Shown here in pieces: positions 5,233 to 48,161 of a stretch of DNA of 64,000 bases. The notes below the pieces were generated by a model. That model saw nothing but the letters and a program-made list of their open reading frames with translations. It had not been told where the DNA came from and did no database searches. The DNA comes from Desulfovibrio sp. (GTDB lineage: Bacteria; Bacillota; Dethiobacteria; DTU022), in contig JAGUZX010000043.1 in NCBI GenBank assembly GCA_020060545.1, positions 21,020-85,019 on the forward strand. Direction: 5' to 3'. The translations under genes were made by a program, and so were the position numbers. The number at the start of each line of letters is the position of its first letter. Within the stretch, counting starts at the first letter, position 1.

Positions 5233-6465
5233 ATGGAGTCTGAAGCTGCCGATACCATCGAAACAAACCGCGGGCAGGTGGAGATATTTACCTTTGGCCG
5301 GTTTTTAATCAGGCGCAACGCCAAAAACCTGCCGGAAGGGCAAAGCCGTTCCAAAAAAGTTTGGGCGCTTTTTCAATATTTACTGGCGCAGCGCGGTAAA
5401 GCCATTTCTCCGGAAACGATCTTGGAAGCTTTATGGCCGGGACAAAACTATACGGATCCCAATTTGGCGCTGCGTTCTTTAGTCCATCGCCTGCGCCGGC
5501 TTCTCGCGGAAGGTCTTGATGAACCTGAACTTGCCCTGAACATTGTATTTTCTCAGGGAGGCTATAAATGGGACAGTAAAGTCGACTGCTGGCTCGATAC
5601 TGATGAGTTTGACCGGTTATGCCGGGAAGCTTATTTATGGAGCGATGAACAGCCCGCGCGCGCTATCGATACTTACCAAAAAGCGATCGCTTTATATGAA
5701 GGGCCTTTCCTCCCGGAGTGCTCCTACCATGAATGGGCTATCGCCAGGCAGAACTATTATCACCGTGCTTTTTTGGATAGTGTTTACAGGCTGGCGGAGC
5801 TTTTAAAGAGAGCGCACCGCTTTTCCGAAATAATCGAGGTTTGCCAAAAAGCCTTAAACCTGGAATATTTTGAAGAAGAGTTGCATATTCTTTTTCTTGA
5901 GGCGTTACTGGAAGAAGGGAAAATTAAGCAGGCCAGGGCGCATTACGACGAGGTTACTTCTACTTTTTACAGGGAACTCGGCACCAAGCCCTCGGAGGCG
6001 ATGCGGAATATTTACCGCCTGATCAAGATGGACAAGGACAACTTTGACCTGGATTTGACATATATCCAGGAGGGATTACGGTGCCGGCAGGAAAACCGGG
6101 GGGCTTTACTGTGCGACCCGGATGTCTTTCGTTATTTCTATAAACTGGAACGCTCCAGGAGAGAAAGAACGGGCCAGGCGGTATTCCTGGGCCTGCTGAC
6201 GATAACGCTGCCCGATTACCGGTTGCCCGCGCCTCAAATTTTGAAGGAAGCGATGCTTCACTTGGAAGCGGTTTTGGAAAAAACACTGCGCAAAGGGGAT
6301 GTCATATCCCGCTGGAATGAAGCGCAATTTTTGTTGATCCTGCCCGGTTTGAACCTGGAACAGGCCGAGCGGGTACTGAAGCGGGTCAATGCCGCGTTCA
6401 AGAGCCGTTACAATCTTGGCAGCCTGGTGCTGCATCGCAAGCAGCAGCCTCTGCTGCCTTTATAA
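5233..6465 (+). CDS. SARP/BTAD-type transcriptional regulator with C-terminal degenerate GGDEF domain (putative c-di-GMP effector)
   Basis: N-terminal OmpR/PhoB-type winged helix (VEIFTFGRFLIRRN…LRSLVHRLRRLL), a central TPR-like BTAD domain and a C-terminal GGDEF-like domain. The active site is degenerate (NEAQF instead of GG[DE]EF). An RxxD I-site (RKGD) sits 5 residues upstream. Confidence 0.8.
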   Translation: MESEAADTIETNRGQVEIFTFGRFLIRRNAKNLPEGQSRSKKVWALFQYLLAQRGKAISPETILEALWPGQNYTDPNLALRSLVHRLRRLLAEGLDEPELALNIVFSQGGYKWDSKVDCWLDTDEFDRLCREAYLWSDEQPARAIDTYQKAIALYEGPFLPECSYHEWAIARQNYYHRAFLDSVYRLAELLKRAHRFSEIIEVCQKALNLEYFEEELHILFLEALLEEGKIKQARAHYDEVTSTFYRELGTKPSEAMRNIYRLIKMDKDNFDLDLTYIQEGLRCRQENRGALLCDPDVFRYFYKLERSRRERTGQAVFLGLLTITLPDYRLPAPQILKEAMLHLEAVLEKTLRKGDVISRWNEAQFLLILPGLNLEQAERVLKRVNAAFKSRYNLGSLVLHRKQQPLLPL

Positions 6466-6502
6466 ACACCAAATCACTGGGCCGGACATCTCATAATGCA
6501 CC

Positions 6503-6536
6503 AACCGCGGTTAAGTCGCAAGAGCGCGGTTTTTTG
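6503..6536 (+). terminator. Putative terminator after regulator gene
   Basis: CCGCG...CGCGG stem followed by TTTTTTG. The loop is long, so confidence is low. Confidence 0.35.
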
Positions 6537-6659
6537 TTACAGGGACCGGAAAAAATAAATTGCGATTGGGTCAATGATGTTGTTGCAACTGAAATATAAC
6601 TGGCGCGTGTTAGTTTAAGATCACAGTTGTTGTAGAATTTAGTGAGGAGCCGCAGTATT

Positions 6660-6902
6660 ATGGCTGAGAACCCAAAAAATGCCTGGTCCCGCCGCAACAG
6701 TTCGGCCGATTTTGTGATCCGGTTTTATCCCGGCGGGGCTGCAAATTACCGGGGGAAAATTGAACACGTGCAATCGGGGCAAGTCCAGCAGTTTTGTGAT
6801 TTTACGGAAATGATGCTCCTGATCCAGGAAAAACTCGATCAAACGGGTTTTCCTCAATCGGATACCGAAATGCGTTCCTGGCCCGATAGTCCATCGAAGT
6901 GA
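6660..6902 (+). CDS. Small hypothetical protein, paralog 1 of a tandem pair (~80 aa)
   Basis: ATG 10 nt after GAGGAG. Shares FxIRF…Y/W-xG-xI…F…E(M/L)(M/I)(L/M)L…E(K/A)L…SW(P/D)D with the downstream ORF. Confidence 0.6.
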   Translation: MAENPKNAWSRRNSSADFVIRFYPGGAANYRGKIEHVQSGQVQQFCDFTEMMLLIQEKLDQTGFPQSDTEMRSWPDSPSK

Positions 6903-6916
6903 TAAAGGAAAAAAAG

Positions 6917-7056
6917 ATGATGTTTCAAAACGCTACGGGGAACAGTAAAGGATCGGATGGAAGCGCCGCCTTTTATGTGCGGATTCATTTCCGCCAAAAT
7001 GCCAGCTGGCAGGGGACAATCCAGTGGTTGGACGAAAAAAAGACGGTTTCTTTCCG
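6917..7056 (+). pseudogene. 5' part of small-protein paralog 2, interrupted by IS insertion
   Basis: The ORF runs into the IS left end and terminates inside the IS (…SFRRADA*). The original frame resumes after the right target-site duplication. Confidence 0.7.
7048..7056. repeat. Target-site duplication TTCTTTCCG (left copy)
   Basis: A 9-bp direct repeat that abuts the IS left terminal inverted repeat. An identical copy lies at 9872-9880. Confidence 0.8.
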
Positions 7057-7200
7057 CAGAGCTGACGCATGATCATAAACATCCATGCAGGGCGGGGGCT
7101 TGCGGGACCGGCGGAAAAAATTTTATCGCAAAATAGTACTGGACAATTTTAAACAGGTATGAAACAATAGTGTGGGAAACCATGGAAGGGGGCCTACACT

Positions 7201-8100
7201 ATGGCAAAACAGTACGATACGCCAGTCCTGCTATGCGGAAGATATTTTACCTTACAGGAGTTGCTGGAGATCCGGGAAACGGCGCGCATGTTCCCGAAAC
7301 TGAGCCGCGCTGAGCTGGCGAATACACTCTGTGAGAACTTGGATTGGGTAACGCCGACCGGTAAGTACAAGACAGCCTCATGTCTACAGCTTTTAGAAAA
7401 ACTTGAAGGGCAAGGCTTGATTGACCTGCCGGCTAAGCTGGAGTACAAGAGCGGCGATAAAAATGGGATCGGCTTTGGGCCGCAGACGGCGCCTGCTTCG
7501 CTGCTTGAAGGCCGGGTAGCCGACCTTGAGCCCATCGCCCTTGAGCCGGTGAGAGACCGAAGTGAACTTCGGCTCTGGAACGAGTATGTGCATCGCTACC
7601 ATGAGTTGGGCTACAAGCGGCCCTTTGGGGCCCATCAGCGCTACTTCATCGTTTCTGCTGCCGGGTCTTTAGGATGCCTTCTGTTTGCTGCTGCCGCCTG
7701 GGCGCTTCAAGCCCGCGACGAGTGGATTGGGTGGAGCGAAGTTGACCGCAGCCTGCGCCTGAACTTAATTGTAAACAACACCCGCCTGCTGATCTTTCCC
7801 TGGGTTAGGGTAAAAAACCTGGCCAGTAAAACCTTATCCCTGGCGGCAAAACGCATCAGTTCTGACTGGCAGGAGCGCTACGGTTACAGCCCGGTATTAC
7901 TGGAGACCTTTGTCGACCCGGAGAAACACCGGGGCACCTGTTACCGGGCGGCCAACTGGATCTTTTTAGGCCAAACCAAAGGGCGCGGCCGCACAGAAAT
8001 GCATAACAAAAGGCCCTTTACGCGCAAATATATTTATGTTTACCCGCTTTGTTGTGACTTCCGCTTTATTCTTTGCGGGAAAGGCGGGGATGTCAGGTGA
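7201..8100 (+). CDS. IS-associated accessory protein (DUF4338-like), orfA of the IS
   Basis: 299 aa. Its stop overlaps the transposase start (GTGA). This family is recurrently found next to DDE transposases. Confidence 0.6.
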   Translation: MAKQYDTPVLLCGRYFTLQELLEIRETARMFPKLSRAELANTLCENLDWVTPTGKYKTASCLQLLEKLEGQGLIDLPAKLEYKSGDKNGIGFGPQTAPASLLEGRVADLEPIALEPVRDRSELRLWNEYVHRYHELGYKRPFGAHQRYFIVSAAGSLGCLLFAAAAWALQARDEWIGWSEVDRSLRLNLIVNNTRLLIFPWVRVKNLASKTLSLAAKRISSDWQERYGYSPVLLETFVDPEKHRGTCYRAANWIFLGQTKGRGRTEMHNKRPFTRKYIYVYPLCCDFRFILCGKGGDVR

Positions 8101-9659
8101 ATGCATCGTTGCCGAAGGTTGTAAAGCGCCATGAACGCAGACAAAAACAGCGTGAGCAGAAGGAGCGGCAAAAAAGGCAGCCGGCTCAGTATCCTTTTGT
8201 TACTGCGTTTGCGAACCGCAAAAGTGACTGCAAAACAGTAGATGAAGAAAAAGAAGCCATCCAGCACACAACGGAGGCCGTACTTGATGTATACATACAG
8301 CTGCTGCCGGGGCTTTTGAAAAAGCTGTCCCTGATACCCGACCCGCGGAACCCCAAGAAAATTAAGCATCAGATAACTGTGCTGATGATCTACGGGATCC
8401 TGATGTTTGTCTTTCAAATCCCCTCCCGGCGCCAGACAAACCGGGAGATGACCACGCCGCAGCTTCATAAAAACCTTAAAGCCGTCTTCGGCGAACTTAA
8501 GGAGATGCCGCATCAGGATACCCTGTACCGCCTGTTGGCAGAGATAGATGTGGATCAGCTCGAGAACATCTACCTAGACATCCTAAGAAGCTTAATCCGC
8601 AAGAAAAAGTTCAAAAACCTGCTTTTAAGTAAGCGCTATCTCGTGGCAGTGGACGGCACACAAAAATACGTCATGAAAGAATGTTGGGACAAACGTTATC
8701 TTAGGCGAAAATTTCGCGGCAAAGACGGCAAATACCAGTATTATGCATACGTTTTAGAAGCGGTTTTAATCTTTTCAAACGGCATGGTGCTGCCTTTGAT
8801 GAGCGAATTTCTGGAGAACACCAAGGCGCTGGAAAGAATCGAGGACGACTTGGAATGGAAACAAGATTGCGAGTTGAAAGCATTCCACCGGCTGGCCAAA
8901 CGGCTGAAGAAAGAGTTTCCGAAACTGCCGCTCACCCTGCTTTTAGACGGGTTGTATGCGAACGGTCCCGTTATGAAAGTTTGCTTAAAGAATAAGTGGG
9001 ACTATATGATCGTTTTAAAAGACGGCTCCCTTGCCTGCGTTTGGCAGGAAGTCAAAGGACTGATGCGCCTAGATACCAAAGGAGAACACCGCTGTAAAAA
9101 AGTATGGCAGGGCCGTAGGCAAATCTTTAGATGGGTAAACGGCATCGAATATGAATATGGTCTGGGCAGAGGTAAAAAAGTGCTGACCATCAATGTGGTG
9201 ATCTGTAACGAAAGCTGGAAAGAAACCGATAGAAAGGGCAATATGGTGGGAAAAACCGGCCATCACGCCTGGATTTCCAGCGTGCCGCTGAACCACAAAA
9301 ATGTCTATGAACGCTGCAATCTGGCGGCCCGGAAACGCTGGTCGCACGAGAACAATATTCTAAAAGAAAAGCATCATGGTTACCACTATGAACACATCTT
9401 TGCCTATGACTTCGATGCGATGCGGGGTTATCACTACCTTATGCATATAGCCCGCATGTTAAATGAACTGATGCTTCATTCAATTAACCTGATCGAAGAG
9501 GTCAAGACAGTCGGCATCCAGGCATTCCTGCGTAAATTTCGCGAAGTTATGATCCACAGGGAGCTCGATACAAAGCAGCTTCGCCTGTTGTCAGAATCCC
9601 CGGGACAGTTGCGGCTGGTGCAGGAAGAAAACTGGCAAACGAACTGGCCGGCGGCATAA
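8097..9659 (+). CDS. DDE transposase, IS4-like
   Basis: LVAVDGTQ (first Asp) and a C-terminal R-x3-E-x6-K (RKRWSHENNILKEK) resembling the IS4 Y(2)R(3)E(6)K motif. ~520 aa. GTG start is coupled to the upstream ORF. Confidence 0.75.
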   Translation: MNASLPKVVKRHERRQKQREQKERQKRQPAQYPFVTAFANRKSDCKTVDEEKEAIQHTTEAVLDVYIQLLPGLLKKLSLIPDPRNPKKIKHQITVLMIYGILMFVFQIPSRRQTNREMTTPQLHKNLKAVFGELKEMPHQDTLYRLLAEIDVDQLENIYLDILRSLIRKKKFKNLLLSKRYLVAVDGTQKYVMKECWDKRYLRRKFRGKDGKYQYYAYVLEAVLIFSNGMVLPLMSEFLENTKALERIEDDLEWKQDCELKAFHRLAKRLKKEFPKLPLTLLLDGLYANGPVMKVCLKNKWDYMIVLKDGSLACVWQEVKGLMRLDTKGEHRCKKVWQGRRQIFRWVNGIEYEYGLGRGKKVLTINVVICNESWKETDRKGNMVGKTGHHAWISSVPLNHKNVYERCNLAARKRWSHENNILKEKHHGYHYEHIFAYDFDAMRGYHYLMHIARMLNELMLHSINLIEEVKTVGIQAFLRKFREVMIHRELDTKQLRLLSESPGQLRLVQEENWQTNWPAA

Positions 9660-9871
9660 TGGCCAAGTTATAAGGTAGAAGCCCGCCTGAGCCACACTAC
9701 CCGTCTGTCCTTTGGTTGGCACCTGGCAGGCCAAAGTGCGCAAAACGATTCACCAAAAAGCGCTGTTGGGGACTAAACAACAAGTTTCTGGAAATAATCG
9801 TCAGTTGACTTGTGCAAAAAAGCTGATTTCGGGCCTCGCAAGATTTTTAAGAATTTCATGCGTCAGCTCTG

Positions 9872-9880
9872 TTCTTTCCG
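9872..9880. repeat. Target-site duplication TTCTTTCCG (right copy)
   Basis: Identical to 7048-7056. Confidence 0.8.
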
Positions 9881-9989
9881 CAGTTTTCTTGAATTAATCA
9901 TGCTCATGACGGAAGCCCTGGGCAAAGTAAAAGGCCGGGAGGCGGCAGCTAATTTACTCTCCTGGGACGATAAAGAAGAGGTTTCGTAG
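9872..9989 (+). pseudogene. 3' part of small-protein paralog 2 (continues the frame interrupted at 7056)
   Basis: After excision of the IS plus one TSD copy in silico, the frame continues …SFRSFLELIMLMTEALGKVKG…LSWDDKEEVS*. This aligns with the C-terminus of paralog 1 (QQFCDFTEMMLLIQEKL…RSWPDSPSK). Confidence 0.7.
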
Positions 9990-10107
9990 TTCAAGGTTCA
10001 TATTTGGCGCAGGTGATAGACGGACGGTTGCGGCTTGAGGCTTAAATGAAAGGCATAGTGCCGGGCGTTTTAGTACAGGCAGTTAAGACTGGCGGGGTGA
10101 AAAGCTT

Positions 10108-12186
10108 TTGAATATTCTAGTTGTTGACCGCAATGAAATATTCCCGGATCTTCTCAAAAAGGTCCTGGTTGAAGACAAAAAATGGAACATTATTACCTGC
10201 TCCTCGGGGCTGGTAACGCTGAAGCTCATTCAAAAATTCACTCCCGATATGCTGATCATGGATCTCAACCTGCCCGATATCGACAGCTTTGAAATGCTAA
10301 GCAAGCTGAAAAGCTTCAGCCGGGAGATCTATACGCTGGTTTTAATCGACAAACTGGAGTACGGGAAGCTTGAGCAGGCGCTTTTAGTCGGCATTGACGA
10401 CTATGTGGTGAAACCGATCGAACAAAAAGAGATGATCGCGCGGATCAAGAAAGCGATCTGGTCCAGTTCCCGGAGAAGCGCCCCGGGGATGGACAGGGAG
10501 GCGGGCATCCCTAAGCCCTGGGCGCTGGACGAAGAGCTGCCGGGGGTCAACCATATCATCATCTATCCCAATACCGCCTCCAAAATCCAAGAAACACGGG
10601 GGGAAGCTGCGGCAACCGGGCTGGAAAACGCCGGCGGGACGGATTTTCTAAAAACGGCGCGCGCTGCCGCAGCTGAAATAAACCCTGACGCGGCCGGGCA
10701 TGTGCAAAAGGACAATCCGCCGGTGAAGAGCGCTTCAACCTATACCTTCGGGTTAGTTAAACCGGTTGGTTTAAGCGGAGCGGATGCCGGCCAAACAGCA
10801 GTTTGCGATCCCCCGCCGGAAATCGCCGGCTTAACCCGCTCCGCGATAACTAATGCTCCTGTAGAAACGGATTCTTTTAGCGGCCCGGGTAGCCGGGGTG
10901 AAGCGGCGCCGGCTGAAGCTGAGCCCAAAAGCTGCGGCCGTAATTTGGCCGAAGAAGAAAAGGCCGATCCGCCAGGGTATCTTGAGTGGCCCGGCGAGGA
11001 CGAGTTCAATACCCGCCTGAACACAGGCGGCGGTACGGGGGGCGCGGCGGCCGGAACCGAAAACGCCGGCGGTATTCCTTTTCGAAAAGAGGCCGCGTTT
11101 TTTTCGGCGGGAGCAGCGCCTGCCGCAAGCCGGGATCGTGAAGGCGGCGCGGCGCCGGAGCGTGACCCGTCATATTTCTTTGGTAAACCGGTACGGATGG
11201 ACAGGGCAGGTGAGCCGGCAGAACCGGGACCGGATCGCCTGGAACCTCCCGATGCGTTAAAAGTGGAAGCCGATTTATTACAGCCGGGAGAGTCGAGCGC
11301 TCAGGAAAAACCAAAACCTTGGCGAAGCGCCGGCAGCGTCACGGGAGAGGCAGGCGCAGGAAAGCAAAGCGCCGGGCCCCTTTCTGCCGGCAAAGAGAGC
11401 GGCGCTTATACGGCGGAAGATAAACCCGGCGAAGAGCGATCCAGTGATCGCGGTTTTGCGGCAGAGGGCCTTGCAACCTATTCCTTTGGGTTAAAGCAGG
11501 CGGGAAAATCCAGTCAAGCCGAGGACTGGCCGGCGGTCTCTAAAAGCCGGGCCTACGCCAGGCCTCCGCTGGGCGGCAAAGAGAAAAAGAAGAAACAACC
11601 GGCCGTCGTGAGGATTTTGGGCAACATTTTTTTTGCCGGCTTGATGGTGATGATGGTGACCCTGGCTTTTTTCCTGGTCCAAAGCAGAATGGCCGGAGGC
11701 CCGCCGTCGGTGTTTGGCCACCAGTTGTATGTGGTGCTCAGCGGCAGCATGAACCCCGCTTTTAGCACGGGGAGCCTGGCTTTCGTCTGCCCGATTGAGC
11801 CCGAAAATGTTAAAGTAGGCGATATTATTACTTTTAAAAGCTCGCCGGTCGGCAAAACCCTTACCACTCACCGCGTAGTGGAAATCGACGGCGAAGACGG
11901 GCTTAGTTTTGTGACACGGGGTGACGCAAACCGGGTCAACGACCCCAACCCGGTTCCGGCGGAAAATGTGATCGGAAAGGTAAACGGTGCCATCCCTTAC
12001 CTGGGGTATCTGCTGGATTTCGCCAAAACCAGAAACGGGCTGCTTTTCCTGGTGGTGGTGCCGGGACTGCTGGTGATTGCCTTCGAGTTGCGCAGCCTGT
12101 TCCGGTATGCGGTTGAAAACCAAAAGCAGAAAGAGCTGCAAAAGGGAGGCGGTTTATATGCCGGACGGGTGGTGGATCAGCAATGA
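10108..12186 (+). CDS. Response-regulator receiver domain fused through a ~380-aa low-complexity linker and a TM helix to a SipW-type (archaeal/ER-type) signal peptidase I
   Basis: N-terminal REC domain (phospho-acceptor D in LIMDLNLPD, K in DYVVKP). An Ala/Gly/Pro/Glu-rich linker spans ~aa 120-500. TM segment VVRILGNIFFAGLMVMMVTLAFF. C-terminal S26 domain with catalytic SGSMNP (Ser), TTHRV (His) and a GDAN box. TTG start. Confidence 0.85.
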   Translation: MNILVVDRNEIFPDLLKKVLVEDKKWNIITCSSGLVTLKLIQKFTPDMLIMDLNLPDIDSFEMLSKLKSFSREIYTLVLIDKLEYGKLEQALLVGIDDYVVKPIEQKEMIARIKKAIWSSSRRSAPGMDREAGIPKPWALDEELPGVNHIIIYPNTASKIQETRGEAAATGLENAGGTDFLKTARAAAAEINPDAAGHVQKDNPPVKSASTYTFGLVKPVGLSGADAGQTAVCDPPPEIAGLTRSAITNAPVETDSFSGPGSRGEAAPAEAEPKSCGRNLAEEEKADPPGYLEWPGEDEFNTRLNTGGGTGGAAAGTENAGGIPFRKEAAFFSAGAAPAASRDREGGAAPERDPSYFFGKPVRMDRAGEPAEPGPDRLEPPDALKVEADLLQPGESSAQEKPKPWRSAGSVTGEAGAGKQSAGPLSAGKESGAYTAEDKPGEERSSDRGFAAEGLATYSFGLKQAGKSSQAEDWPAVSKSRAYARPPLGGKEKKKKQPAVVRILGNIFFAGLMVMMVTLAFFLVQSRMAGGPPSVFGHQLYVVLSGSMNPAFSTGSLAFVCPIEPENVKVGDIITFKSSPVGKTLTTHRVVEIDGEDGLSFVTRGDANRVNDPNPVPAENVIGKVNGAIPYLGYLLDFAKTRNGLLFLVVVPGLLVIAFELRSLFRYAVENQKQKELQKGGGLYAGRVVDQQ

Positions 12187-12761
12187 GGTATAAGCTAATT
12201 CTAAGCATCGTCGTTTTGCTGCTGGCCGTTTCCCTTGTCAGCGGCGCCACCACCGCCTGGTTCTCCGACCAGGCGGTTATAGATCCCAATATATTTACCG
12301 TTACTGTCAGCTCGCAAAAAGACAGCGCCTGGGGCGACGGGACAGTCTATCATGCCACGAATCACCGCTATTTTGAATTTACCAAAAGCCAGCTCCTGGA
12401 GACCGGCGGGCGGCAGGCCGACCTTGTGCAGGGGCCGGACGGCAATAAAAAGGTGCTGGGCAAAGTCACGGTTTGGATTGAAACGGTCAGCGGCGTGCAA
12501 ACTTTGTGTGTCAAGTTTGACACCACCGGATACGGCTTGATCGAAAAAACCGATGTTTATGCGGGGCTGCCTTCGGCGGGCAATCCGCCCAACAGCCCCG
12601 GGAAGTATGGGTCGCACCGCACGTATTACGGCAACACGGTAACGATATCCCTGCATCACGATATCACCAGGATCAATGACGGCGGCGCGGGGGTGAGCAT
12701 TTCCCAACTGGGCGGCAGCACCTTAATCCGCATCGCCGCCCATGCCGATGTTTATCACTAG
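12183..12761 (+). CDS. TasA/camelysin (peptidase M73)-like secreted protein with SipW-cognate signal peptide
   Basis: Signal peptide followed by ATTAWFSD (the AxFxD SipW-cognate motif). ATGA overlap with the sipW-fusion stop indicates translational coupling. 192 aa. Confidence 0.8.
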   Translation: MRYKLILSIVVLLLAVSLVSGATTAWFSDQAVIDPNIFTVTVSSQKDSAWGDGTVYHATNHRYFEFTKSQLLETGGRQADLVQGPDGNKKVLGKVTVWIETVSGVQTLCVKFDTTGYGLIEKTDVYAGLPSAGNPPNSPGKYGSHRTYYGNTVTISLHHDITRINDGGAGVSISQLGGSTLIRIAAHADVYH

Positions 12762-12877
12762 GTGCCAAAACTGATCGCATCACGCCAAGACCGGCGATGT
12801 GATCGTTTGCGAGATTTTCGAGAGGGGGGAATAAAGCAACGCAGCATGATCTTGCCCTAAAACTCGCCTAAATTAAC

Positions 12878-12960
12878 GATAATGGCAAACCTGCCGCAAG
12901 GCGGGGACGCAAAGCCAAGGGCCTTTCGCAAGGATGGCAGCCTGGCCGCCGGGGGAAAAA
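12878..12960 (+). ncRNA. c-di-GMP-I (GEMM) riboswitch, copy 1
   Basis: GGCAAACC-UGCC-GCAA(tetraloop)-GGCGGGGACGCAAAGCC followed by a P2 region. It matches the invariant GEMM core (…GGCAAACC…GNRA…GGGACGCAAAGCC…) of the V. cholerae Vc2 aptamer. It lies 25 nt upstream of the RBS of the second TasA-like gene. Confidence 0.8.
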
Positions 12961-12986
12961 GATAAGTGTAAATGGAGGGAGCAAAA

Positions 12987-13604
12987 ATGAATCGAAAAGT
13001 AATGATGAGCGTCCTGGTGATCCTGATGGCCACGGCGGCCGTGGCCGGCGCCACCATGGCCTGGTTTACCGACACGGCAACAGTTGAACCCAACACTTTC
13101 GTGGCGGGGACATTGAAAATCAGGGCCAACGAGGTGTTCAATTGGGCGGATCAAACCAGGCCCAATTGGAACCCCGGGGACTGTGACCAAAAGGAAATTA
13201 CCCTTGAAGTGACGGGGACCAAGTCGGTCTATCTCCGGGCCCGGATTACGGAAACATGGACCATGGTCGGTGCAAGCACGGTAACTTACACCAGGCGGAA
13301 TGCGCCGAACATCACCTGGAAAGTGAACGGACAACCCTGGAACCATGACGGCGCCTGGCAGTTGATCACCATCGACGGCGTTGATTACTGGTTCTATAAA
13401 GGCCCCGTTGACGCCAAACTGGCCTCGGGAGCGCAATTGCTGGTTCTTTCGGAGGTCTGCCTGGATGGAGCGGCCACGGGCAACGACTACCAGGGGGCTA
13501 CGTATACGCTGGCCATTTCTTTTGAAGCGGTTCAGACCACGAACCAGGCGGTAAACGATGTATGGGGATACAAGTTCGAAGGCGGTTCATGGGTGCCCAG
13601 ATAG
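12987..13604 (+). CDS. TasA/camelysin-like secreted protein 2 with SipW-cognate signal peptide
   Basis: ATG 6 nt after GGAGGGAG. Signal peptide followed by ATMAWFTD. 205 aa. Paralogous to 12183..12761. Confidence 0.8.
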   Translation: MNRKVMMSVLVILMATAAVAGATMAWFTDTATVEPNTFVAGTLKIRANEVFNWADQTRPNWNPGDCDQKEITLEVTGTKSVYLRARITETWTMVGASTVTYTRRNAPNITWKVNGQPWNHDGAWQLITIDGVDYWFYKGPVDAKLASGAQLLVLSEVCLDGAATGNDYQGATYTLAISFEAVQTTNQAVNDVWGYKFEGGSWVPR

Positions 13605-13741
13605 AACAGAAAAGGAAAAAGGCAGTTGTTTTTTTCGTGTAATCCGAAACTTGACCCGCTCAATCTTTCCCATGGAAAGGGAAGGATTGGGCGGGGATCG
13701 CAGCGAGGCGGCATCATTTTGTTCAAAAGAGTTGGTGTCTG

Positions 13742-14407
13742 ATGCAAATGCAAAAATTCGTTCCGGCGATCATCAGTTTAGGGATAATGCTGGCTCTGGC
13801 CGGCCTGGTCCTGCTCATCCAACCTTACTATACGCTTGCCCAGGAAGACCATCCGTGCCGGATCACGGTTACCCCGCCGGAGGGCCGTTTTGCGATTGGG
13901 AATATGAATCCGGGTGACACGGCAAGTAAAAGCTTCACCGTGACCAAGGTCGGAGAGGCTCCTGCCTATCTTTACCTGAGGCAGGAATGGCTGCAGGGAA
14001 ACCCCCTCCCGGGTATGCCGGGAGATCTTTACAGCCAGCTCGTCATGGTAATCAGTTACCAGGGACGCCAGATTTACCGGGGCAAGATGAGCGCCCTGCC
14101 GAACCCGGTTAACGTTACCTTAATGACGCTGGGCCGCCCGATCCTGGTCGGCGAGTCGATCCGGCTCGACTGCAGCGTCCACCTTCCGGGGCCGGAGACC
14201 GGCAACGAGTTTCAGGGTTCGAGCGTGGTCACAAGGCTTGTTTTTTATACCGCCTGTTTCGAAGATGAGGAAGTTCCACCGGAGCCTCCGGAGATTGATC
14301 CTCCGGAGCTCCCGCCGACAAACGGCGTATTGCCGATGCTCCTGCTTGCCGCCGGGGTTTCAGTGATTTTCGCGGGGATTGTGCTCAGGAAAAAGGCGGA
14401 GGCGTAA
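13742..14407 (+). CDS. Secreted beta-rich protein with C-terminal LPPTNG-type cell-wall sorting signal (putative fibre anchor)
   Basis: N-terminal signal/TM. Pro-rich stalk (EEVPPEPPEIDPPE) followed by LPPTNG, a hydrophobic stretch and RKKAEA. This is the tripartite architecture of sortase substrates. Confidence 0.65.
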   Translation: MQMQKFVPAIISLGIMLALAGLVLLIQPYYTLAQEDHPCRITVTPPEGRFAIGNMNPGDTASKSFTVTKVGEAPAYLYLRQEWLQGNPLPGMPGDLYSQLVMVISYQGRQIYRGKMSALPNPVNVTLMTLGRPILVGESIRLDCSVHLPGPETGNEFQGSSVVTRLVFYTACFEDEEVPPEPPEIDPPELPPTNGVLPMLLLAAGVSVIFAGIVLRKKAEA

Positions 14408-14468
14408 GCGGCCGCCCGAGACCCTTCCGGTTACAGGCTGCCTGGCCGCCGCCAAAGGAGAGATCTTG

Positions 14469-14714
14469 ATGAACTGGAATTACCGGGTTTTGAAAGTGTA
14501 TGATCGCGAGCATGACAGCTATTATTACACGATTATCGAAGTTTTTTACGATCAAGCCGGCCGGATCGAGGGTTGGGTCAAAAACACTCAGCCCACGCGA
14601 TGGGAAGACTATGAGGGTTTAAGGCAAACGATCCTGGAACATCTGCCTGTTGCGTTTCAACAACCGGTGTTAATCGAGGTTGAAAATGAAAAATTGGTAG
14701 AATGCGCGGATTAA
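14469..14714 (+). CDS. Small hypothetical protein
   Basis: ATG 8 nt after AAGGAGAG. 81 aa with no recognisable domain. Confidence 0.45.
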   Translation: MNWNYRVLKVYDREHDSYYYTIIEVFYDQAGRIEGWVKNTQPTRWEDYEGLRQTILEHLPVAFQQPVLIEVENEKLVECAD

Positions 14715-14911
14715 GTTAGTAATCGATCCTATGCGGATGTATCATCCCAAAAAAAACTTGTGACTGGTAATATTTGTTGCAGGAATTTAAGGTTTATTGG
14801 CCAAAATAAGTATATGGATGTTTGGATTGGATGAGCTGTTAATTGAGACCTTAAAGGAGATGATGGCCGGCAAGATCCTGACTGCGAATTCAAGCAAGTA
14901 AAAATCCTGAC

Positions 14912-15000
14912 CGACAAGGCAAACCCGTCGAGAGGCGGGGACGCAAAGCCAAGGGTCTAAAGCCCGATTGACGGGCCATGATCGCCAGGCTACCGAAACA
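14912..15000 (+). ncRNA. c-di-GMP-I (GEMM) riboswitch, copy 2
   Basis: GGCAAACCCGUCGAGAGGCGGGGACGCAAAGCCAAGGGUCUAAAGCC…GGCUACCGAAACAGG. Same core as copies 1 and 3. The downstream GGTCCCTC…GAGGGAC hairpin (15020-15042) can sequester the RBS. Confidence 0.8.
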
Positions 15001-15048
15001 GGTTTTATTATTTCGGCTGTCGGTCCCTCACAAAGGAGGGACTTTATT

Positions 15049-16140
15049 TTGAGCAAAATAAGGTTTATTAATAGCATCGTGATCAGCGTTGTGATCGCCC
15101 TGATCCTTTCACTGCCGGGGATTTCAAAAATTACTGCCAGGGAAGATCTGACAATTTCGACTGTGGGCGCCGCGTCAAACGAAGCGGGAGCAGAAGAAGG
15201 CCCGGTGTTGCGGGAAGCAACGGCCGGCCTGCCTGGCGGCCCCGATCAGATTGGCCAGGCGGAAGCGGAAATAAACGGTGGTGCCGGAAACGCACCGGAA
15301 CAAAGTTCAACGCCGGGTTCCAGCCCGGAGCAGGGCGCTGTGCCAAAGCAGGAACTGGCTGCCGGGGAACAGTTGACGGAGAAGTCAACAGGCGCGCCGC
15401 CGCAGGAAGCGGTGAAAAATGAACCGGTCCAGGAGACGGTAAAAAGCGAGCCGGCCCCGCCCCCAACCAAGAGTGAAACGCCGCCGCCTGCCGCGCCGGT
15501 CAGCTTCAGTTGGGGCGCCGCGCAAACCTATCGTTACCGCACGGAGATAGTGTTAACCAACAGCGGAGCGGAAGTTTCACAGGGCGTACTGGTCAGGCTG
15601 CCCCTGCTGGAAAACAGCTCGCCGTATCAAAACACCACCCTCACTTCCATTAACTATGAACCTCTTGAGACCACGGGAAGGACAAGCTCTTTTCATCTCG
15701 GAGACATGCAGCCGGGTGAAACGAAAACGCTAATCGTGGATTATACCATTACGGTGCGCCCCGTTTGGCTCAATTCAACCAATGCGACCGTGGAAAAAGC
15801 AAGGCAGGCTTACCGGGAGTACGCCGGGAGCGGCAACTGCTTTGTTCTGGCGGCCGGTTTTGTAAACCGCAGCCGGGAATTGGGTCTTACCGCGCGGGTG
15901 GTCAACGGGATTGCCAACCCGCAAAGAGGGATATTCGCGCCGGGCTATATCCAAAACCGTCACAGCTGGGCCGAGTTTTATGTCGAAGGGCCGGGTTGGG
16001 TTCCGGTTGACCTTACTTTTCAATATTTCGGGCAGCTGCCCCAGGCTTCCCATATCGTCGAGAACTACGCCGACCAATCGCTGAAGCTCAACTATTTCGG
16101 GGGCAGAGTAAGCGCAGTTTGGCACACCAGAATCCTGTAA
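15049..16140 (+). CDS. Secreted transglutaminase-like cysteine protease superfamily protein with Pro/Glu-rich spacer
   Basis: TTG start 8 nt after GGAGGG, downstream of the riboswitch. Signal/TM MSKIRFINSIVISVVIALILSL. C-terminal transglutaminase-like core (Cys in GNCFVLAAGF, His in HSWAEFY, Asp in VPVDLT). Confidence 0.7.
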   Translation: MSKIRFINSIVISVVIALILSLPGISKITAREDLTISTVGAASNEAGAEEGPVLREATAGLPGGPDQIGQAEAEINGGAGNAPEQSSTPGSSPEQGAVPKQELAAGEQLTEKSTGAPPQEAVKNEPVQETVKSEPAPPPTKSETPPPAAPVSFSWGAAQTYRYRTEIVLTNSGAEVSQGVLVRLPLLENSSPYQNTTLTSINYEPLETTGRTSSFHLGDMQPGETKTLIVDYTITVRPVWLNSTNATVEKARQAYREYAGSGNCFVLAAGFVNRSRELGLTARVVNGIANPQRGIFAPGYIQNRHSWAEFYVEGPGWVPVDLTFQYFGQLPQASHIVENYADQSLKLNYFGGRVSAVWHTRIL

Positions 16141-42220: not shown

Positions 42221-42254
42221 GTTTTTTGAAGTAAGTTGATAATGCGAATAAAAC

Positions 42255-42342
42255 TCGTTTCAGGGCAAACCCGTTGAAAAGCGGGGACGCAAAGCCGACA
42301 GGCCTAAAGCGCTACTGCCAGGGCGGCTGGGTTACCGGGCGG
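42255..42342 (+). ncRNA. c-di-GMP-I (GEMM) riboswitch, copy 3
   Basis: CAGGGCAAACCCGUUGAAAAGCGGGGACGCAAAGCCGACAGGCCUAAAGCGCUACUGCCAGGGCGGCUGGGUUACCGGGCGG. Near-identical to the Vc2 consensus (GGCAAACC…GAAA…GGGACGCAAAGCC…GGCCUAAA…GGGUUACCG). Confidence 0.88.
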
Positions 42343-42345
42343 ATC

Positions 42346-42382
42346 AAAAATCCCAAGGAAAACCCTGGGGATTTTTATGTTT
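42346..42382 (+). terminator. Intrinsic terminator forming the riboswitch expression platform
   Basis: AAAAAUCCCAAGG-aaaa-CCCUGGGGAUUUUU hairpin followed by AUGUUUU. Confidence 0.6.
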
Positions 42383-42456
42383 TAGCATCAAACAGGATTG
42401 AGTTTTTTCGAGGTAATTTAGGCTACACTTCTTTTTTCTATAATTTACGACAGTTA

Positions 42457-42485
42457 TTGACAAAATAATCTGTCTGGTTCATAAT
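42457..42485 (+). promoter_or_regulatory. Second sigma-A-type promoter (TTGACA-17-CATAAT) immediately upstream of pilB
   Basis: Consensus -35 and a good -10 hexamer, 40 nt upstream of the pilB RBS (AGGGAGGAG). Confidence 0.5.
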
Positions 42486-42525
42486 AAAAGAAAAAAATGC
42501 CTTTTTTATCAGGGAGGAGAAACTG

Positions 42526-45138: not shown

Positions 45139-45147
45139 CGCTCCCCG

Positions 45148-46233: not shown

Positions 46234-46246
46234 GAGGAGTCGCTTC

Positions 46247-47476: not shown

Positions 47477-47566
47477 CAGAAAAGACAGTTCAAGGTTAAA
47501 CCCTTCCAAGGGAAACCTTTTTACATAGAGAGAGAGAAATAATAGACGGGAAAGGAGGTGAAAATG

Positions 47567-47953
47567 ATGATTTTGAAGATAGCGCAGCTTTTGCGCTGCC
47601 TGCACAGGGAGGAGAAAGGTTTCACCTTAATCGAACTGCTTGTTGTTATCGCCATCCTCGGCGTCCTGGCCGCGATCGCCGTGCCGCTGGTGTCGGCCCG
47701 GATTGAAGAGGCAAGAGGAGCGGCCAATACGGCCAACCTGTCGCTGCTGCAGAAGGCGGTTGAGCTTTACCGGGCGGATACCGGCGTGCTGCCGGCTGTA
47801 GGCGCAGCTTTCCAGACCGACTTAGTCACCCAGCCTGCTAATGTTACCGGCTGGAAAGGCCCATATATAAGGGAGGCAGTTTCTCCACCTGCAGGTTACG
47901 GGGACTATACCATGAGTGATACTGGAGTTGTGTCTAATGCAGTTGCACCGTAA
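47567..47953 (+). CDS. pilA: Type IV major pilin (prepilin; class III signal peptide)
   Basis: Leader followed by G/FTLIELLVVIAILGVLAAIAVP, with E at +5. ATG 6 nt after GGAGGTG. Followed by a strong terminator. Confidence 0.85.
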   Translation: MILKIAQLLRCLHREEKGFTLIELLVVIAILGVLAAIAVPLVSARIEEARGAANTANLSLLQKAVELYRADTGVLPAVGAAFQTDLVTQPANVTGWKGPYIREAVSPPAGYGDYTMSDTGVVSNAVAP

Positions 47954-48000
47954 GAGTAGCTAAACAGCATGTGTACAGCTTGAGAGTAGAGATGATAAGA

Positions 48001-48033
48001 GCGGCGGCAGCGCTGCTGCCGCCGCTATATTTA
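48001..48033 (+). terminator. Rho-independent terminator/attenuator after pilA
   Basis: Perfect 11-bp stem GCGGCGGCAGC-gc-GCUGCCGCCGC followed by UAUAUUU. Confidence 0.75.
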
Positions 48034-48161
48034 AATCCGAAAATTGATTGCCGCGTAGCGGCCGCAATAATAGCTCTGGTGCATCATTGAGCCCATGTTT
48101 TTTGGCCGTGGTGCCGGTATTGAATCCTTTTCTCCCCCTTTATATGGAGAGGCAAATAAGG

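What the first reader, a model, noticed from the sequence alone, without database searches (positions are those of the whole stretch)
5233..16140. Candidate c-di-GMP-controlled extracellular fibre/matrix locus (regulator, small proteins, REC-SipW, two TasA-like proteins, LPXTG-type anchor, transglutaminase)
Taken together, these genes look like a self-contained, previously undescribed module analogous to tapA-sipW-tasA but wired to c-di-GMP. The evidence is a degenerate-GGDEF SARP regulator, two riboswitches, SipW-cognate AxFxD proteins that are translationally coupled to their peptidase, a sortase-type anchored protein in the TapA position, and a secreted transglutaminase that could cross-link the fibres. 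The IS insertion into one of the small genes marks the region as accessory.
Basis: inference. Interest (0 to 1): 0.85.

Follow-up and report, generated by a model that had tools for sequence, protein, structure and literature searches.

The report
c-di-GMP-gated TasA-like fibre locus
This is a conserved gene cluster of uncultured Syntrophomonadaceae-like bacteria that most likely builds cell-attached TasA-type protein fibres and switches them on through the second messenger c-di-GMP; this combination of known parts does not appear in the searched literature.

Summary
Window 5233-16140 encodes a SARP regulator with a degenerate GGDEF domain, two small paralogous proteins (the second split by a 2.8-kb IS), a receiver-SipW signal-peptidase fusion, two proteins with SipW-type signal peptides, a TasA-fold protein with a C-terminal LPxTxG sorting signal, and a transglutaminase-like protein. 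Rfam finds c-di-GMP-I aptamers at 12875-12954 and 14908-14997.

Comparative genomics turns the guess into a real module. About 30 loci from uncultured Syntrophomonadaceae/Bacillota genomes keep the same genes, in most cases directly after mltG, usually with an aptamer directly upstream of the main TasA-like gene.

New points:
- The regulator keeps an invariant RxxD I-site.
- A SARP-type 11-bp direct-repeat operator precedes the small genes in nearly every locus.
- The receiver-SipW fusion occurs in at least 68 protein clusters.
- The anchored protein is a TasA homologue lacking the donor strand.
- The first "TasA-like" protein shares only the signal peptide and donor strand, which makes it TapA-like.

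Corrections:
- The locus is lineage-conserved, not accessory.
- The sorting motif is non-canonical.
- The start codons of two genes move.

Fibre formation, ligand binding and cross-linking remain untested. Verdict: a new variant of known kinds (TasA/SipW fibres, c-di-GMP riboswitch-controlled surface structures).

The parts
5233..6465 (+). SARP-type regulator (winged helix + BTAD) with a C-terminal degenerate GGDEF domain. The active-site motif reads NEAQF. The RxxD I-site (R353, D356) is intact.
   Evidence: Pfam and NCBIfam. Profile hits to AfsR 8HVR and to GGDEF structures. Alignment A1 shows R353 and D356 invariant, five residues upstream of the degenerate motif.
6584..6616 (+). Predicted SARP operator and promoter: direct repeats TGCAAC (6584-6589) and TATAAC (6595-6600) with an 11-bp period, then a -10-like TAGTTT (6611-6616) 8 bp after the 3' repeat read as an 8-mer.
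   Evidence: Only match in the 64-kb window. The same YRTAAC-N5-YRTAAC motif occurs in 18 related loci, almost always in the regulator-to-small1 spacer. The geometry matches the published SARP promoter rule (PMC10936776).
6660..6902 (+). small1, an 80-aa cytoplasmic protein of an unnamed family with a beta-beta-beta-alpha core.
   Evidence: Orthologues in about 20 loci. AlphaFold model pLDDT 73.5. No Pfam or NCBIfam hit.
6917..7059 (+). small2, 5' part (a paralogue of small1), interrupted by the IS.
7060..9871 (+). Insertion sequence of about 2.8 kb. Terminal inverted repeats lie at 7057-7072 / 9856-9871 and the target duplication at 7048-7059 / 9872-9883. It carries a DruA/DUF4338-like ORF (7201-8100) and a DDE transposase (8073-9659).
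   Evidence: repeats; Pfam; single copy in the window.
9884..9989 (+). small2, 3' part. Joined to 6917-7059 it gives an 82-aa ORF.
   Evidence: The restored ORF aligns over residues 2-82 with orthologues in L003/L004.
10108..12186 (+). Receiver domain (residues 1-120), a low-complexity linker of about 370 aa, a transmembrane segment, the SipW-type signal peptidase I domain (residues about 500-675) and a C-terminal transmembrane segment.
   Evidence: The fusion is found in 68 of the top 150 cluster representatives. S547, H588 and D606 are conserved. The receiver keeps D52 and K102 but lacks the second acidic residue and the Thr.
12183..12761 (+). SipW substrate 1 ('TasA1'): SipW-type signal peptide and donor-strand-like N-terminus (WFSDQAVIDPNIFTV) on a non-TasA beta-rich body. 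It overlaps the sipW stop codon (ATGA). It is TapA-like by its features.
   Evidence: TIGR04088 8e-06. hhalign similarity to the TasA family only in residues 1-51.
12875..12954 (+). c-di-GMP-I-type aptamer in the leader of the main TasA-like gene.
   Evidence: RF03167, 70.5 bits, E 1.1e-14. It keeps GCAAAGC, that is A and not the variant model's G. Orthologous aptamers occur in ten further loci.
12987..13604 (+). Main TasA-family subunit ('TasA2'), with a SipW-type signal peptide and donor strand.
   Evidence: PF12389 2.5e-10; TIGR04088 1.2e-08; TIGR04090 5.4e-13. The family profile hits B. subtilis TasA 5OF1/8AUR at E about 5e-07.
13742..14407 (+). TasA-fold protein with an ordinary signal peptide, no donor strand, an acidic and proline-rich stalk, and a C-terminal LPPTNG + transmembrane segment + basic tail. 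Predicted cell-anchored fibre base.
   Evidence: hhalign to the TasA2 family at 98.5% probability, with shared NxNPGD and GNE(F/Y)QG motifs. LPxTxG is conserved in seven orthologues.
14908..14997 (+). c-di-GMP-I aptamer in the leader of the transglutaminase gene.
   Evidence: RF01051, 79.4 bits, E 5.6e-14. Orthologous aptamer-transglutaminase pairs occur in L001 and L027.
15022..15043 (+). Hairpin followed by a U-tract that doubles as an intrinsic terminator and a Shine-Dalgarno sequester. Its 5' arm (15022-15025) overlaps UGUCGGUC (15018-15025), which can instead pair with GACCGACA (14909-14916) 5' of the aptamer.
   Evidence: Best terminator-like site in the scan. Alternative pairing and conservation in the window, L001 and L027.
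15049..16140 (+). Secreted or membrane-tethered transglutaminase-like protein. Cys-His-Asp motifs are present (GNCFV, HSWAEF, VPVDL).
   Evidence: PF01841 5.3e-12. The motifs were read from the sequence. The orthologue in L001 is 43% identical.

Best explanation
The locus is a lineage-conserved biogenesis and control module for cell-attached TasA-type protein fibres, switched on by c-di-GMP at several levels.

Proposed sequence of events (steps 1-6 are inferred from anatomy and conservation):
1. At high c-di-GMP, the SARP regulator binds the messenger at the retained RxxD I-site of its dead GGDEF domain.
2. The regulator activates the promoter carrying its 11-bp direct repeats. This drives small1-small2 and, in this genome, probably the downstream REC-SipW and TapA-like genes.
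3. c-di-GMP binds the aptamer in the leader of the main TasA-like subunit and frees its ribosome-binding site.
4. c-di-GMP binds a second aptamer that controls a terminator and Shine-Dalgarno hairpin in front of a transglutaminase-like protein.
5. The SipW domain, which has intact Ser/His/Asp residues, cleaves the two proteins that carry SipW-type signal peptides.
6. The main subunit polymerises by N-terminal donor-strand exchange, as B. subtilis TasA does. The sipW-coupled protein has a donor strand plus an unrelated body, and acts like TapA as nucleator or cap. The TasA-fold protein that lacks a donor strand and ends in LPxTxG, a membrane span and a basic tail accepts a strand and ties the fibre to the cell envelope.

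More speculative steps:
- The transglutaminase-like enzyme may cross-link or trim the assembly.
- The atypical receiver domain on SipW and the small1/small2 pair are regulatory parts of unknown mechanism.

Shown here: gene content, domain identities, conserved synteny, aptamers, the operator motif and conserved catalytic or binding residues. In this particular genome an IS has split small2, so the module may be misregulated.
For: Domains.

Synteny:
- The same genes occur in most of about 30 loci from uncultured Syntrophomonadaceae/Bacillota MAGs.

Aptamers:
- Rfam hits at E 1e-11 to 1e-16 lie directly upstream of the TasA2 orthologue in L002, L003, L004, L009, L012, L014, L024, L026 and L030. 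L010 has a weaker hit (37.6 bits, E 0.002).
- Aptamers also lie upstream of the transglutaminase gene in the window, L001 and L027.
- In 8 of 9 TasA2 leaders the free-energy minimum pairs the Shine-Dalgarno sequence, in six of them with CCUUCAUUU of aptamer helix P2. Enforcing the aptamer fold frees it fully in six and partly in two more, at a cost of 0.9-5.7 kcal/mol. This implies an ON switch.

Regulator:
- RxxD is invariant while the GGDEF motif is lost.
- The YRTAAC-N5-YRTAAC operator is unique in the window and lies in the regulator-to-small1 spacer in 18 loci. Its geometry matches that described for SARPs (PMC10936776).

Peptidase:
- The REC-SipW fusion is recurrent, with conserved S547, H588 and D606.

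Fibre parts:
- The anchored protein is homologous to TasA2 (hhalign 98.5%) but starts at the first core strand.
- Its sorting-type C-terminus is conserved.
- TasA1 shares only the signal peptide and donor strand.
- The donor-strand mechanism and the role of TapA are documented in PMC9674648 and PMC10151520.

Small proteins: small1-small2 natural fusions exist, which argues that the pair acts together.
Against: - No experiment exists and all relatives are uncultured, so fibre formation, SipW processing and c-di-GMP binding are untested.
- In the window's own TasA2 leader the Shine-Dalgarno sequence is predicted free in both states, so the switch direction is not supported for this genome.
- L001 has no aptamer upstream of its TasA2 orthologue. 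The distant version of the module (L005/L006/L031) has none at Rfam's gathering threshold (L005/L006); L031 was not scanned.
- No sortase signature (TLxTC) occurs in the 64-kb window or the fetched loci. The motif is LPxTxG rather than LPXTG, and TIGR01167 did not match.
- The receiver lacks two of the five canonical residues, and no kinase gene lies in the locus.
- The body of TasA1 could not be modelled (pLDDT 45).
- The IS splits small2 and separates the predicted promoter from REC-SipW by 2.8 kb.
Confidence: 0.68

Rival explanations
1. The module decorates spores rather than vegetative cells or biofilm. On this reading the TasA-like proteins and the transglutaminase are spore-coat or appendage components. 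TasA was first described as spore-associated, and Bacillus Tgl cross-links coat proteins.
For: - The solved TasA entries are named 'Spore coat-associated protein N'.
- The transglutaminase-like gene lies next to a SpoVD-like penicillin-binding protein in both the window and L001.
- The role of Tgl in coat cross-linking comes from my own knowledge and was not checked here.
Against: - The c-di-GMP aptamers, and a third aptamer on a type IV pilus operon in the same window, point to a surface or adhesion regulon of vegetative cells.
- The anchored protein has a cell-envelope sorting signal.
- No sporulation sigma-factor promoter or spo gene lies inside the locus.
- The penicillin-binding protein is a flanking gene, absent from most related loci.
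Confidence: 0.1
2. The SipW substrates are secreted soluble proteins, for example camelysin-type proteases, adhesins or antimicrobial proteins, and do not polymerise. On this reading the anchored protein is a separate adhesin.
For: The Pfam family is named Peptidase_M73 (camelysin). JGI labels homologues 'ribosomally synthesized peptide with SipW-like signal peptide'. Polymerisation is untested.
Against: - No HExxH motif is visible in the TasA2 sequence.
- The donor-strand segment and the interface motifs NxNPGD and GNE(Y/F)QG are the most conserved parts of the family.
- A donor-only protein and an acceptor-only protein are co-conserved in the same locus. That pattern makes sense only for an ordered polymer.
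Confidence: 0.1
3. In this particular genome the module is disabled or deregulated. The IS has destroyed small2 and cut the SARP-dependent promoter off from REC-SipW and the TapA-like gene, so what is seen is a decaying copy of a system that works in relatives.
For: - The IS has perfect inverted repeats and an intact target duplication, which suggests a recent event.
- small2 is split.
- The window's TasA2 leader has lost the anti-Shine-Dalgarno pairing seen in orthologues.
Against: - All other ORFs are intact, with conserved catalytic residues.
- The IS genes point the same way, so read-through or an outward promoter could still drive REC-SipW.
- TasA2 and the transglutaminase gene have their own leaders.
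Confidence: 0.3
4. The aptamer in front of TasA2 senses a ligand other than c-di-GMP, because Rfam assigns it to the variant family c-di-GMP-I-GGC rather than to c-di-GMP-I.
For: The best-scoring model is RF03167 for the window and for most orthologous leaders.
Against: - At the position where the two Rfam consensus sequences differ (GACGCGAAGCC against GACGCAAAGCC), all nine leaders carry the canonical A.
- The assignment probably reflects the short second helix.
- That this position defines the variant is my reading of the two consensus lines. It was not checked in the original paper.
Confidence: 0.07

Closest known systems
Bacillus subtilis tapA-sipW-tasA operon (TasA fibres assembled by donor-strand exchange)
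   Same: - An ER/archaeal-type signal peptidase SipW is encoded with its substrates.
- The major subunit is of the TasA/camelysin family, with a SipW-type signal peptide and an N-terminal donor strand.
- An accessory protein has a donor-strand-like N-terminus and an unrelated body, and its gene overlaps sipW.
(PMC9674648; PMC10151520.)
   Different: - Here SipW carries an N-terminal receiver domain and a long linker.
- A third component is a TasA-fold protein without a donor strand but with a C-terminal LPxTxG sorting signal.
- The major subunit has a c-di-GMP aptamer.
- The regulator is a SARP-GGDEF protein rather than SinR/SlrR.
- A transglutaminase-like gene and a small-protein pair belong to the module.
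Clostridium perfringens sipW-bsaA biofilm matrix operon (BsaA polymers)
   Same: A SipW-dependent TasA-like matrix protein in an anaerobic Firmicute. The window protein is nearest to the BsaA family model TIGR04090 (5.4e-13; PMC7395162).
   Different: - The score (49.2) is below the family cutoff (60).
- The searched text of the C. perfringens paper mentions riboswitches and c-di-GMP only in its reference list.
- That paper found no LPXTG-like motif in BsaA, and polymerisation did not need the neighbouring srtB gene.
c-di-GMP riboswitch-controlled surface structures of Clostridioides difficile (pilA1 type IV pili, the sortase-anchored adhesin CD2831) and the Bacillus cereus-group collagen adhesin
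   Same: c-di-GMP aptamers in the leaders of genes for pili or cell-wall-anchored adhesins in Firmicutes. The same window also has an aptamer in front of a type IV pilus operon. The comparison systems are recalled from my own knowledge and were not read here.
   Different: - The controlled cargo here is a TasA-family fibre subunit and a transglutaminase-like protein.
- No paper in the searched library links c-di-GMP riboswitches with TasA, camelysin or SipW.
SARP regulators (AfsR, ActII-ORF4, DnrI) and degenerate-GGDEF c-di-GMP receptors with an I-site (PelD, PopA and similar)
   Same: - Winged helix plus BTAD architecture.
- The target promoter has 11-bp-spaced direct repeats ending 8 bp from the -10 element.
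- The GGDEF domain has lost its active-site motif but keeps RxxD five residues upstream. The receptor examples are from my own knowledge.
   Different: - I know of no described fusion of a SARP domain to a degenerate GGDEF domain.
- The host is a Firmicute, not an actinomycete.
- The target is a surface-structure locus, not antibiotic biosynthesis.

Membership tests
TasA/camelysin family (PF12389; TIGR04088 signal peptide) | SipW-dependent-type signal peptide | tested here: met
   TIGR04088 gives 25.9 bits (12183-12761) and 34.8 bits (12972/12987-13604), against a cutoff of 19.
TasA/camelysin family (PF12389; TIGR04088 signal peptide) | Homology to the TasA beta-sandwich body | tested here: met
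   This holds for 12987-13604 only. PF12389 scores 40.9 bits against a cutoff of 22.5. The family profile matches 5OF1 at E 4.4e-07 over profile positions 33-185. It is NOT met for 12183-12761: PF12389 scores 17.2, below the cutoff and covering residues 4-36 only, and hhalign aligns residues 1-51 only. The anchored protein 13742-14407 meets it by hhalign at 98.5%.
TasA/camelysin family (PF12389; TIGR04088 signal peptide) | Forms filaments by N-terminal donor-strand exchange | not testable with these tools
   The donor-strand-like segment WFTDTATVEPN is present. No multimer prediction or experiment was available.
BsaA family (TIGR04090) | Score above the NCBIfam cutoff | tested here: not met
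   49.2 bits against a cutoff of 60. Related, but not a member by the curated threshold.
SipW / archaeal-ER-type signal peptidase I | Model score and catalytic Ser/His(/Asp) | tested here: met
   TIGR02228 scores 127.3 against a cutoff of 51.85. S547, H588 and D606 are conserved in at least 136 of 150 relatives. The Bacillus SipW equivalog NF046067 scores 145.5, below its cutoff of 190, so the protein is not an equivalog.
Response-regulator receiver domain | Pfam score and the five conserved residues (CheY D12, D13, D57, T87, K109) | tested here: inconclusive
   PF00072 scores 60.3 against a cutoff of 30.2. D12, D57 and K109 are present. D13 is Arg and T87 is Ile, and across 68 fusions the D13 and T87 positions are mostly non-canonical. 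This is an atypical receiver and phosphorylation is uncertain.
c-di-GMP-I riboswitch (RF01051 / clan CL00126) | Covariance-model score above gathering | tested here: met
   79.4 bits against 35 (14908-14997). 70.5 bits against 59 for RF03167 (12875-12954).
c-di-GMP-I-GGC variant (RF03167) | G at the position where the variant consensus reads GACGCGAAGCC | tested here: not met
   The window and all eight orthologous leaders read GCAAAGC. By this nucleotide the aptamer is canonical.
c-di-GMP-I riboswitch (RF01051 / clan CL00126) | Binds c-di-GMP and switches expression | not testable with these tools
   Only in-silico alternative folds are available.
SARP family regulator | OmpR-type winged helix plus BTAD; target promoter with direct repeats 11 or 22 bp apart, the 3' repeat 8 bp from the -10 element | tested here: met
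   PF00486 scores 31.2 against 26.2 and PF03704 scores 68.8 against 22.1. AfsR 8HVR matches at E 1e-05. The operator is at 6584-6616 and in 18 related loci. The rule is quoted from PMC10936776. DNA binding itself is untested.
GGDEF diguanylate cyclase | GG(D/E)EF active site | tested here: not met
   The motif reads NEAQF, NDAQF, HESQF or STSQY in the five aligned orthologues. PF00990 scores 23.9 against a cutoff of 23.8.
Degenerate-GGDEF c-di-GMP receptor | RxxD I-site five residues upstream of the GGDEF position; binds c-di-GMP | tested here: inconclusive
   RKGD (R353, D356) is invariant in alignment A1. Binding is not testable here.
Sortase substrate (LPXTG cell-wall anchor, TIGR01167) | LPXTG motif, hydrophobic span and basic tail; a cognate sortase | tested here: inconclusive
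   The tripartite signal is conserved, but the motif is LPxTxG (LPPTNG, LPRTSG, LPRTDG, LPRTGG). There was no TIGR01167 hit at E 0.01 or better. No TLxTC protein occurs in the window or the loci. The rest of the genome was not seen.
Transglutaminase-like superfamily (PF01841) | Domain score and the Cys-His-Asp triad | tested here: met
   46.4 bits against a cutoff of 23. The motifs GNCFV, HSWAEF and VPVDL were read in the sequence. The activity (cross-linking or protease) is unknown.

The most novel reading that the evidence does not exclude
The locus encodes a three-part donor-strand-exchange pilus of a Gram-positive-type anaerobe. The parts are an envelope-anchored acceptor-only base, a TasA-like shaft and a TapA-like donor-only nucleator or tip. 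Its production is gated by c-di-GMP at three independent points: an I-site-bearing SARP activator, a translational ON riboswitch on the shaft subunit, and a riboswitch on a cross-linking transglutaminase. Its dedicated signal peptidase is itself a signalling protein, through a built-in atypical receiver domain that is exchanged with the regulator in sister lineages. In syntrophic fatty-acid oxidisers such fibres could be the regulated glue for partner contact.
Probability: 0.3. Interest if true: 0.78.

Novelty: new variant of a known kind. Interest (0 to 1): 0.62.

Why it matters
TasA fibres are the textbook protein scaffold of Bacillus biofilms, but c-di-GMP is not known to control them. In Firmicutes, c-di-GMP riboswitches are known for pili and adhesins, not for TasA-type matrix.

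If the model holds, this locus would:
- connect the two fields;
- offer a natural base-shaft-tip arrangement with which to test the polarity of donor-strand exchange in TasA-type fibres;
- add three candidate signalling parts that appear undescribed in the searched literature: a SARP activator with an I-site-only GGDEF domain, a receiver-signal-peptidase fusion present in dozens of protein clusters, and a family of more than 300 small paired proteins.

The hosts are uncultured Syntrophomonadaceae-like bacteria recovered as metagenome-assembled genomes. Aggregation with partner organisms is central to syntrophic metabolism, so a regulated adhesion fibre would be ecologically relevant.

Tried and rejected
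- **Homologue search with full-length REC-SipW.** It returned only the protein itself and one unrelated hit, because the low-complexity linker dominated the word index. The exhaustive HMMER search replaced it.
- **Exact look-up of the source contig for P0001.** Not on record. The organism is inferred only from relatives.
- **AlphaFold of 12183-12761 from a single sequence.** pLDDT 45, so it was not used for fold search.
- **Sequence searches against the PDB.** The transglutaminase-like protein gave no hit. 12183-12761 gave only chance-level hits.
- **Sortase.** No TLxTC-containing ORF occurs in the window or the loci. This was a regex test only.
- **IS.** No second copy in the window and no plasmid match. 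The family was left unassigned beyond 'DDE transposase with a DDE_Tnp_1_assoc N-terminus'.
- **L001.** A relaxed Rfam search upstream of the TasA2 orthologue found no aptamer.
- **Rejected: 'accessory island'.** GC content is somewhat lower than in the flanks, but synteny in about 24 of the related loci argues for vertical conservation.
- **Rejected: the GGC-variant ligand.** See the rival explanations.
- **Literature.** No paper links c-di-GMP riboswitches with TasA, SipW or camelysin, or a receiver domain with SipW. The library holds open-access papers only.

Full report
**1. What is in the sequence**

- **Regulator, 5233-6465.** It has an OmpR-type winged helix, a BTAD domain and a weak GGDEF domain.
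- **Small proteins.** Two small ORFs follow: 6660-6902, and 6917 onward.
- **Insertion sequence.** The second small ORF is interrupted by a 2.8-kb element.
  - It has perfect 16-nt inverted repeats at 7057-7072 and 9856-9871.
  - It has a 9-12-nt target duplication at 7048-7059 and 9872-9883.
  - It carries a DruA/DUF4338-like ORF and a DDE transposase.
  - Removing the element and one copy of the duplication restores an 82-aa ORF. That ORF aligns over its whole length with orthologues elsewhere.
- **REC-SipW, 10108-12186.** It is a receiver domain, a low-complexity linker of about 370 residues, and a SipW-type signal peptidase flanked by hydrophobic segments.
- **First SipW substrate, 12183-12761.** Its start codon overlaps the peptidase stop codon (ATGA). 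It carries a SipW-dependent signal peptide.
- **Second SipW substrate, 12987-13604.** It lies after a 225-nt spacer. It carries the same signal peptide type and matches Peptidase_M73/TasA and, below threshold, the BsaA family.
- **Anchored protein, 13742-14407.** It has an ordinary signal peptide and ends in LPPTNG, a hydrophobic stretch and RKKAEA.
- **Transglutaminase-like protein, 15049-16140.**
- **Aptamers.** Rfam places c-di-GMP aptamers at 12875-12954 and 14908-14997. A third lies at 42254-42339.

Two start codons needed correction. TTG 15049 follows a Shine-Dalgarno sequence.

**2. It is a conserved module, not an accessory island**

- Homologues of the 12987 protein led to contigs with the same neighbourhood.
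- A scan of one genome per species with an alignment of the regulator returned 27 loci. All come from uncultured 'Syntrophomonadaceae bacterium' or 'Bacillota bacterium' MAGs.
- A tblastn map of all 33 loci shows a recurrent order in most of them: mltG, SARP-GGDEF regulator, small1, small2, TasA-like protein(s), aptamer, orthologue of the 12987 protein, further TasA-like protein, anchored protein, REC-SipW.
- The window and its closest relative L007 place REC-SipW and the coupled substrate directly after small2.
- The transglutaminase gene with its aptamer recurs in L001 and L027.

The locus is therefore fixed at one chromosomal site across many species. The lower GC content and the IS do not make it accessory.

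**3. The c-di-GMP links**

*Riboswitches*
- Rfam finds an aptamer directly upstream of the TasA2 orthologue in L002, L003, L004, L009, L012, L014, L024, L026 and L030. L010 has a weak one.
- L001 has none, even at a relaxed threshold.
- The distant versions L005 and L006 have none at the gathering threshold. L031 was not scanned.
- Rfam labels most of these aptamers c-di-GMP-I-GGC. Every leader nevertheless keeps GCAAAGC at the one place where the two consensus sequences differ, so I treat them as canonical c-di-GMP-I aptamers with a short second helix.
- In eight of nine TasA2 leaders the minimum-energy fold pairs the Shine-Dalgarno region. In six of them the pairing is AAAAUGGAGG with CCUUCAUUUU, which belongs to aptamer helix P2.
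- Enforcing the aptamer fold frees the site fully in six of these leaders and partly in two more, at a cost of 0.9-5.7 kcal/mol. This is the design of a translational ON switch.
- The window's own leader has a different P2 loop and shows no such pairing. Its behaviour is open.
- The transglutaminase leader has a hairpin at 15022-15043 that is both a terminator and a Shine-Dalgarno sequester.
- The 5' arm of that hairpin overlaps UGUCGGUC, which can pair with GACCGACA just 5' of the aptamer. Both segments are identical in the window, L001 and L027.
- I read this as an antiterminator that extends the aptamer's closing helix, which would make it an ON switch. The direction is not established.

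*Regulator*
- In five orthologues the GG(D/E)EF motif is replaced by NEAQF, NDAQF, HESQF or STSQY.
- The RxxD I-site exactly five residues upstream is invariant.
- This is the pattern of c-di-GMP receptors derived from cyclases, a point I take from my own knowledge.

**4. A predicted operator**

- The spacer between the regulator and small1 contains YRTAAC-N5-YRTAAC, an 11-bp period.
- If the 3' repeat is read as an 8-mer, it is followed after 8 bp by a -10-like hexamer.
- The window has a single match in 64 kb, at 6584-6600.
- Eighteen related loci have matches, and all but one match lie in the same spacer on the coding strand.
- This is the published geometry of SARP-dependent promoters (PMC10936776).
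- The motif is absent upstream of the TasA2 aptamer and of the transglutaminase gene.
- The regulator therefore probably drives the small1-small2 operon. In this genome that operon plausibly continues into REC-SipW, because I saw no terminator in 9990-10107.

**5. The fibre parts**

- A profile of the TasA2 family matches B. subtilis TasA (5OF1, 8AUR) at E about 5e-07 over most of the body.
- The anchored protein is homologous to that family (hhalign 98.5%). It shares the motifs NxNPGD and GNE(F/Y)QG.
- After its signal peptide, however, the anchored protein begins at the first core strand. It lacks the segment that forms the donor strand in TasA.
- Its C-terminus is conserved as LPxTxG, a hydrophobic span and a basic tail in seven orthologues.
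- The sipW-coupled protein shows the opposite pattern. It shares the signal peptide and the donor-strand segment (residues 1-51), and the rest is unrelated.
- In B. subtilis the N-terminal strand of each TasA inserts into the next subunit. TapA has a similar N-terminus on a complete, unrelated fold, and nucleates the fibre (PMC9674648, PMC10151520).
- I therefore propose three roles: an acceptor-only base, a shaft subunit and a donor-only TapA-like nucleator or cap. This is inference and has not been modelled.

**6. The peptidase fusion**

- An exhaustive HMMER search found 68 cluster representatives among the best 150 that combine a receiver and a SipW domain. Their linkers span 22-567 residues.
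- The peptidase residues S547, H588 and D606 are conserved.
- The receiver keeps the phospho-acceptor Asp and the Lys. It usually lacks the second acidic residue and the Thr, so it is atypical.
- No kinase gene lies in the locus.
- In L018, L019 and L021 a related receiver is fused to a BTAD-GGDEF paralogue instead. This hints that the receiver talks to the regulator.
- No paper in the library mentions a signal peptidase, SipW and a receiver domain together.

**7. The small proteins**

- small1 and small2 are paralogues.
- The family has 322 members in the protein database, none of them named. Two members are natural small1-small2 fusions.
- A model of small1 (pLDDT 73.5) shows three strands and a helix, with no informative structural neighbour.
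- They are the first genes behind the SARP operator and are probably regulatory. The mechanism is unknown.

**8. Comparison and verdict**

- The system works like tapA-sipW-tasA and is related to it through SipW and the TasA family.
- It differs in five ways: a receiver on the peptidase, an envelope-anchored TasA-fold base, riboswitch control, a SARP-GGDEF activator, and the transglutaminase and small-protein genes.
- c-di-GMP riboswitches on pili and adhesins are known in Firmicutes. The same window has one on a type IV pilus operon.
- I found no report of one on TasA-type genes.
- I class the locus as a new variant of known kinds.
- The main uncertainties are the absence of any experiment, the non-canonical sorting motif with no sortase in view, the unresolved switch direction in this genome, and the IS that may have disabled part of the control circuit.

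Noticed in passing
window 42254-48623: A third c-di-GMP-I aptamer (42254-42339, 67.6 bits) precedes a type IV pilus operon. The operon has a PilB-like ATPase with an MshEN domain and unusual C-terminal CARDB/DUF11/DUF7507 repeats (42526-45138), a PilT-like ATPase, PilC and two pilins. L004 20061-20150 has the same aptamer placement after a HAD phosphatase.
   Followed up: partly
window 7060-9871: The IS that splits small2 carries a DruA/DUF4338-like ORF (PF14236 2.5e-43) next to a DDE transposase with a DDE_Tnp_1_assoc N-terminus. It is single-copy in the window and has no plasmid match. The family was not assigned.
   Followed up: partly
window 14469-14714: An 81-aa ORF with a good ribosome-binding site lies between the anchored protein and the transglutaminase aptamer. 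It has no homologue in any related locus and no Pfam match.
   Followed up: partly
L018 11251-12774; L019 11270-12430; L021 2585-4126: A second regulator paralogue in which a receiver domain replaces the winged helix (REC-BTAD-GGDEF). Its receiver resembles the one fused to SipW in the window.
   Followed up: partly
P0195 (165 aa), P0196 (168 aa): Natural fusions of small1 and small2 in metagenomic proteins, which suggests that the two small proteins act as a pair.
   Followed up: no
L010 8552-8630: The aptamer upstream of the TasA-like gene scores only 37.6 bits and reads AAC where all the others read GGC before AAACC. This is possibly a change at a ligand-contact nucleotide.
   Followed up: no
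L005 3964-20591; L006; L031: This is a distant version of the module. The regulator is 31% identical, SipW has no receiver, there are three TasA-like genes and no aptamer was found in L005/L006. In L005/L006 EPS-type glycosyltransferases follow, and in L005 an HD_5-domain protein lies upstream.
   Followed up: no
window 12773-12806: An imperfect hairpin followed by a T-rich stretch lies after the sipW-coupled gene. It may end that transcript, so the TasA2 aptamer would need its own promoter. The terminator scan did not call it.
   Followed up: no
window 12875-12954 and orthologous leaders: Rfam assigns these aptamers to the c-di-GMP-I-GGC variant model although they carry the canonical A at the position where the two consensus sequences differ. 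Automated annotation of such leaders as 'GGC variant' may be misleading.
   Followed up: partly
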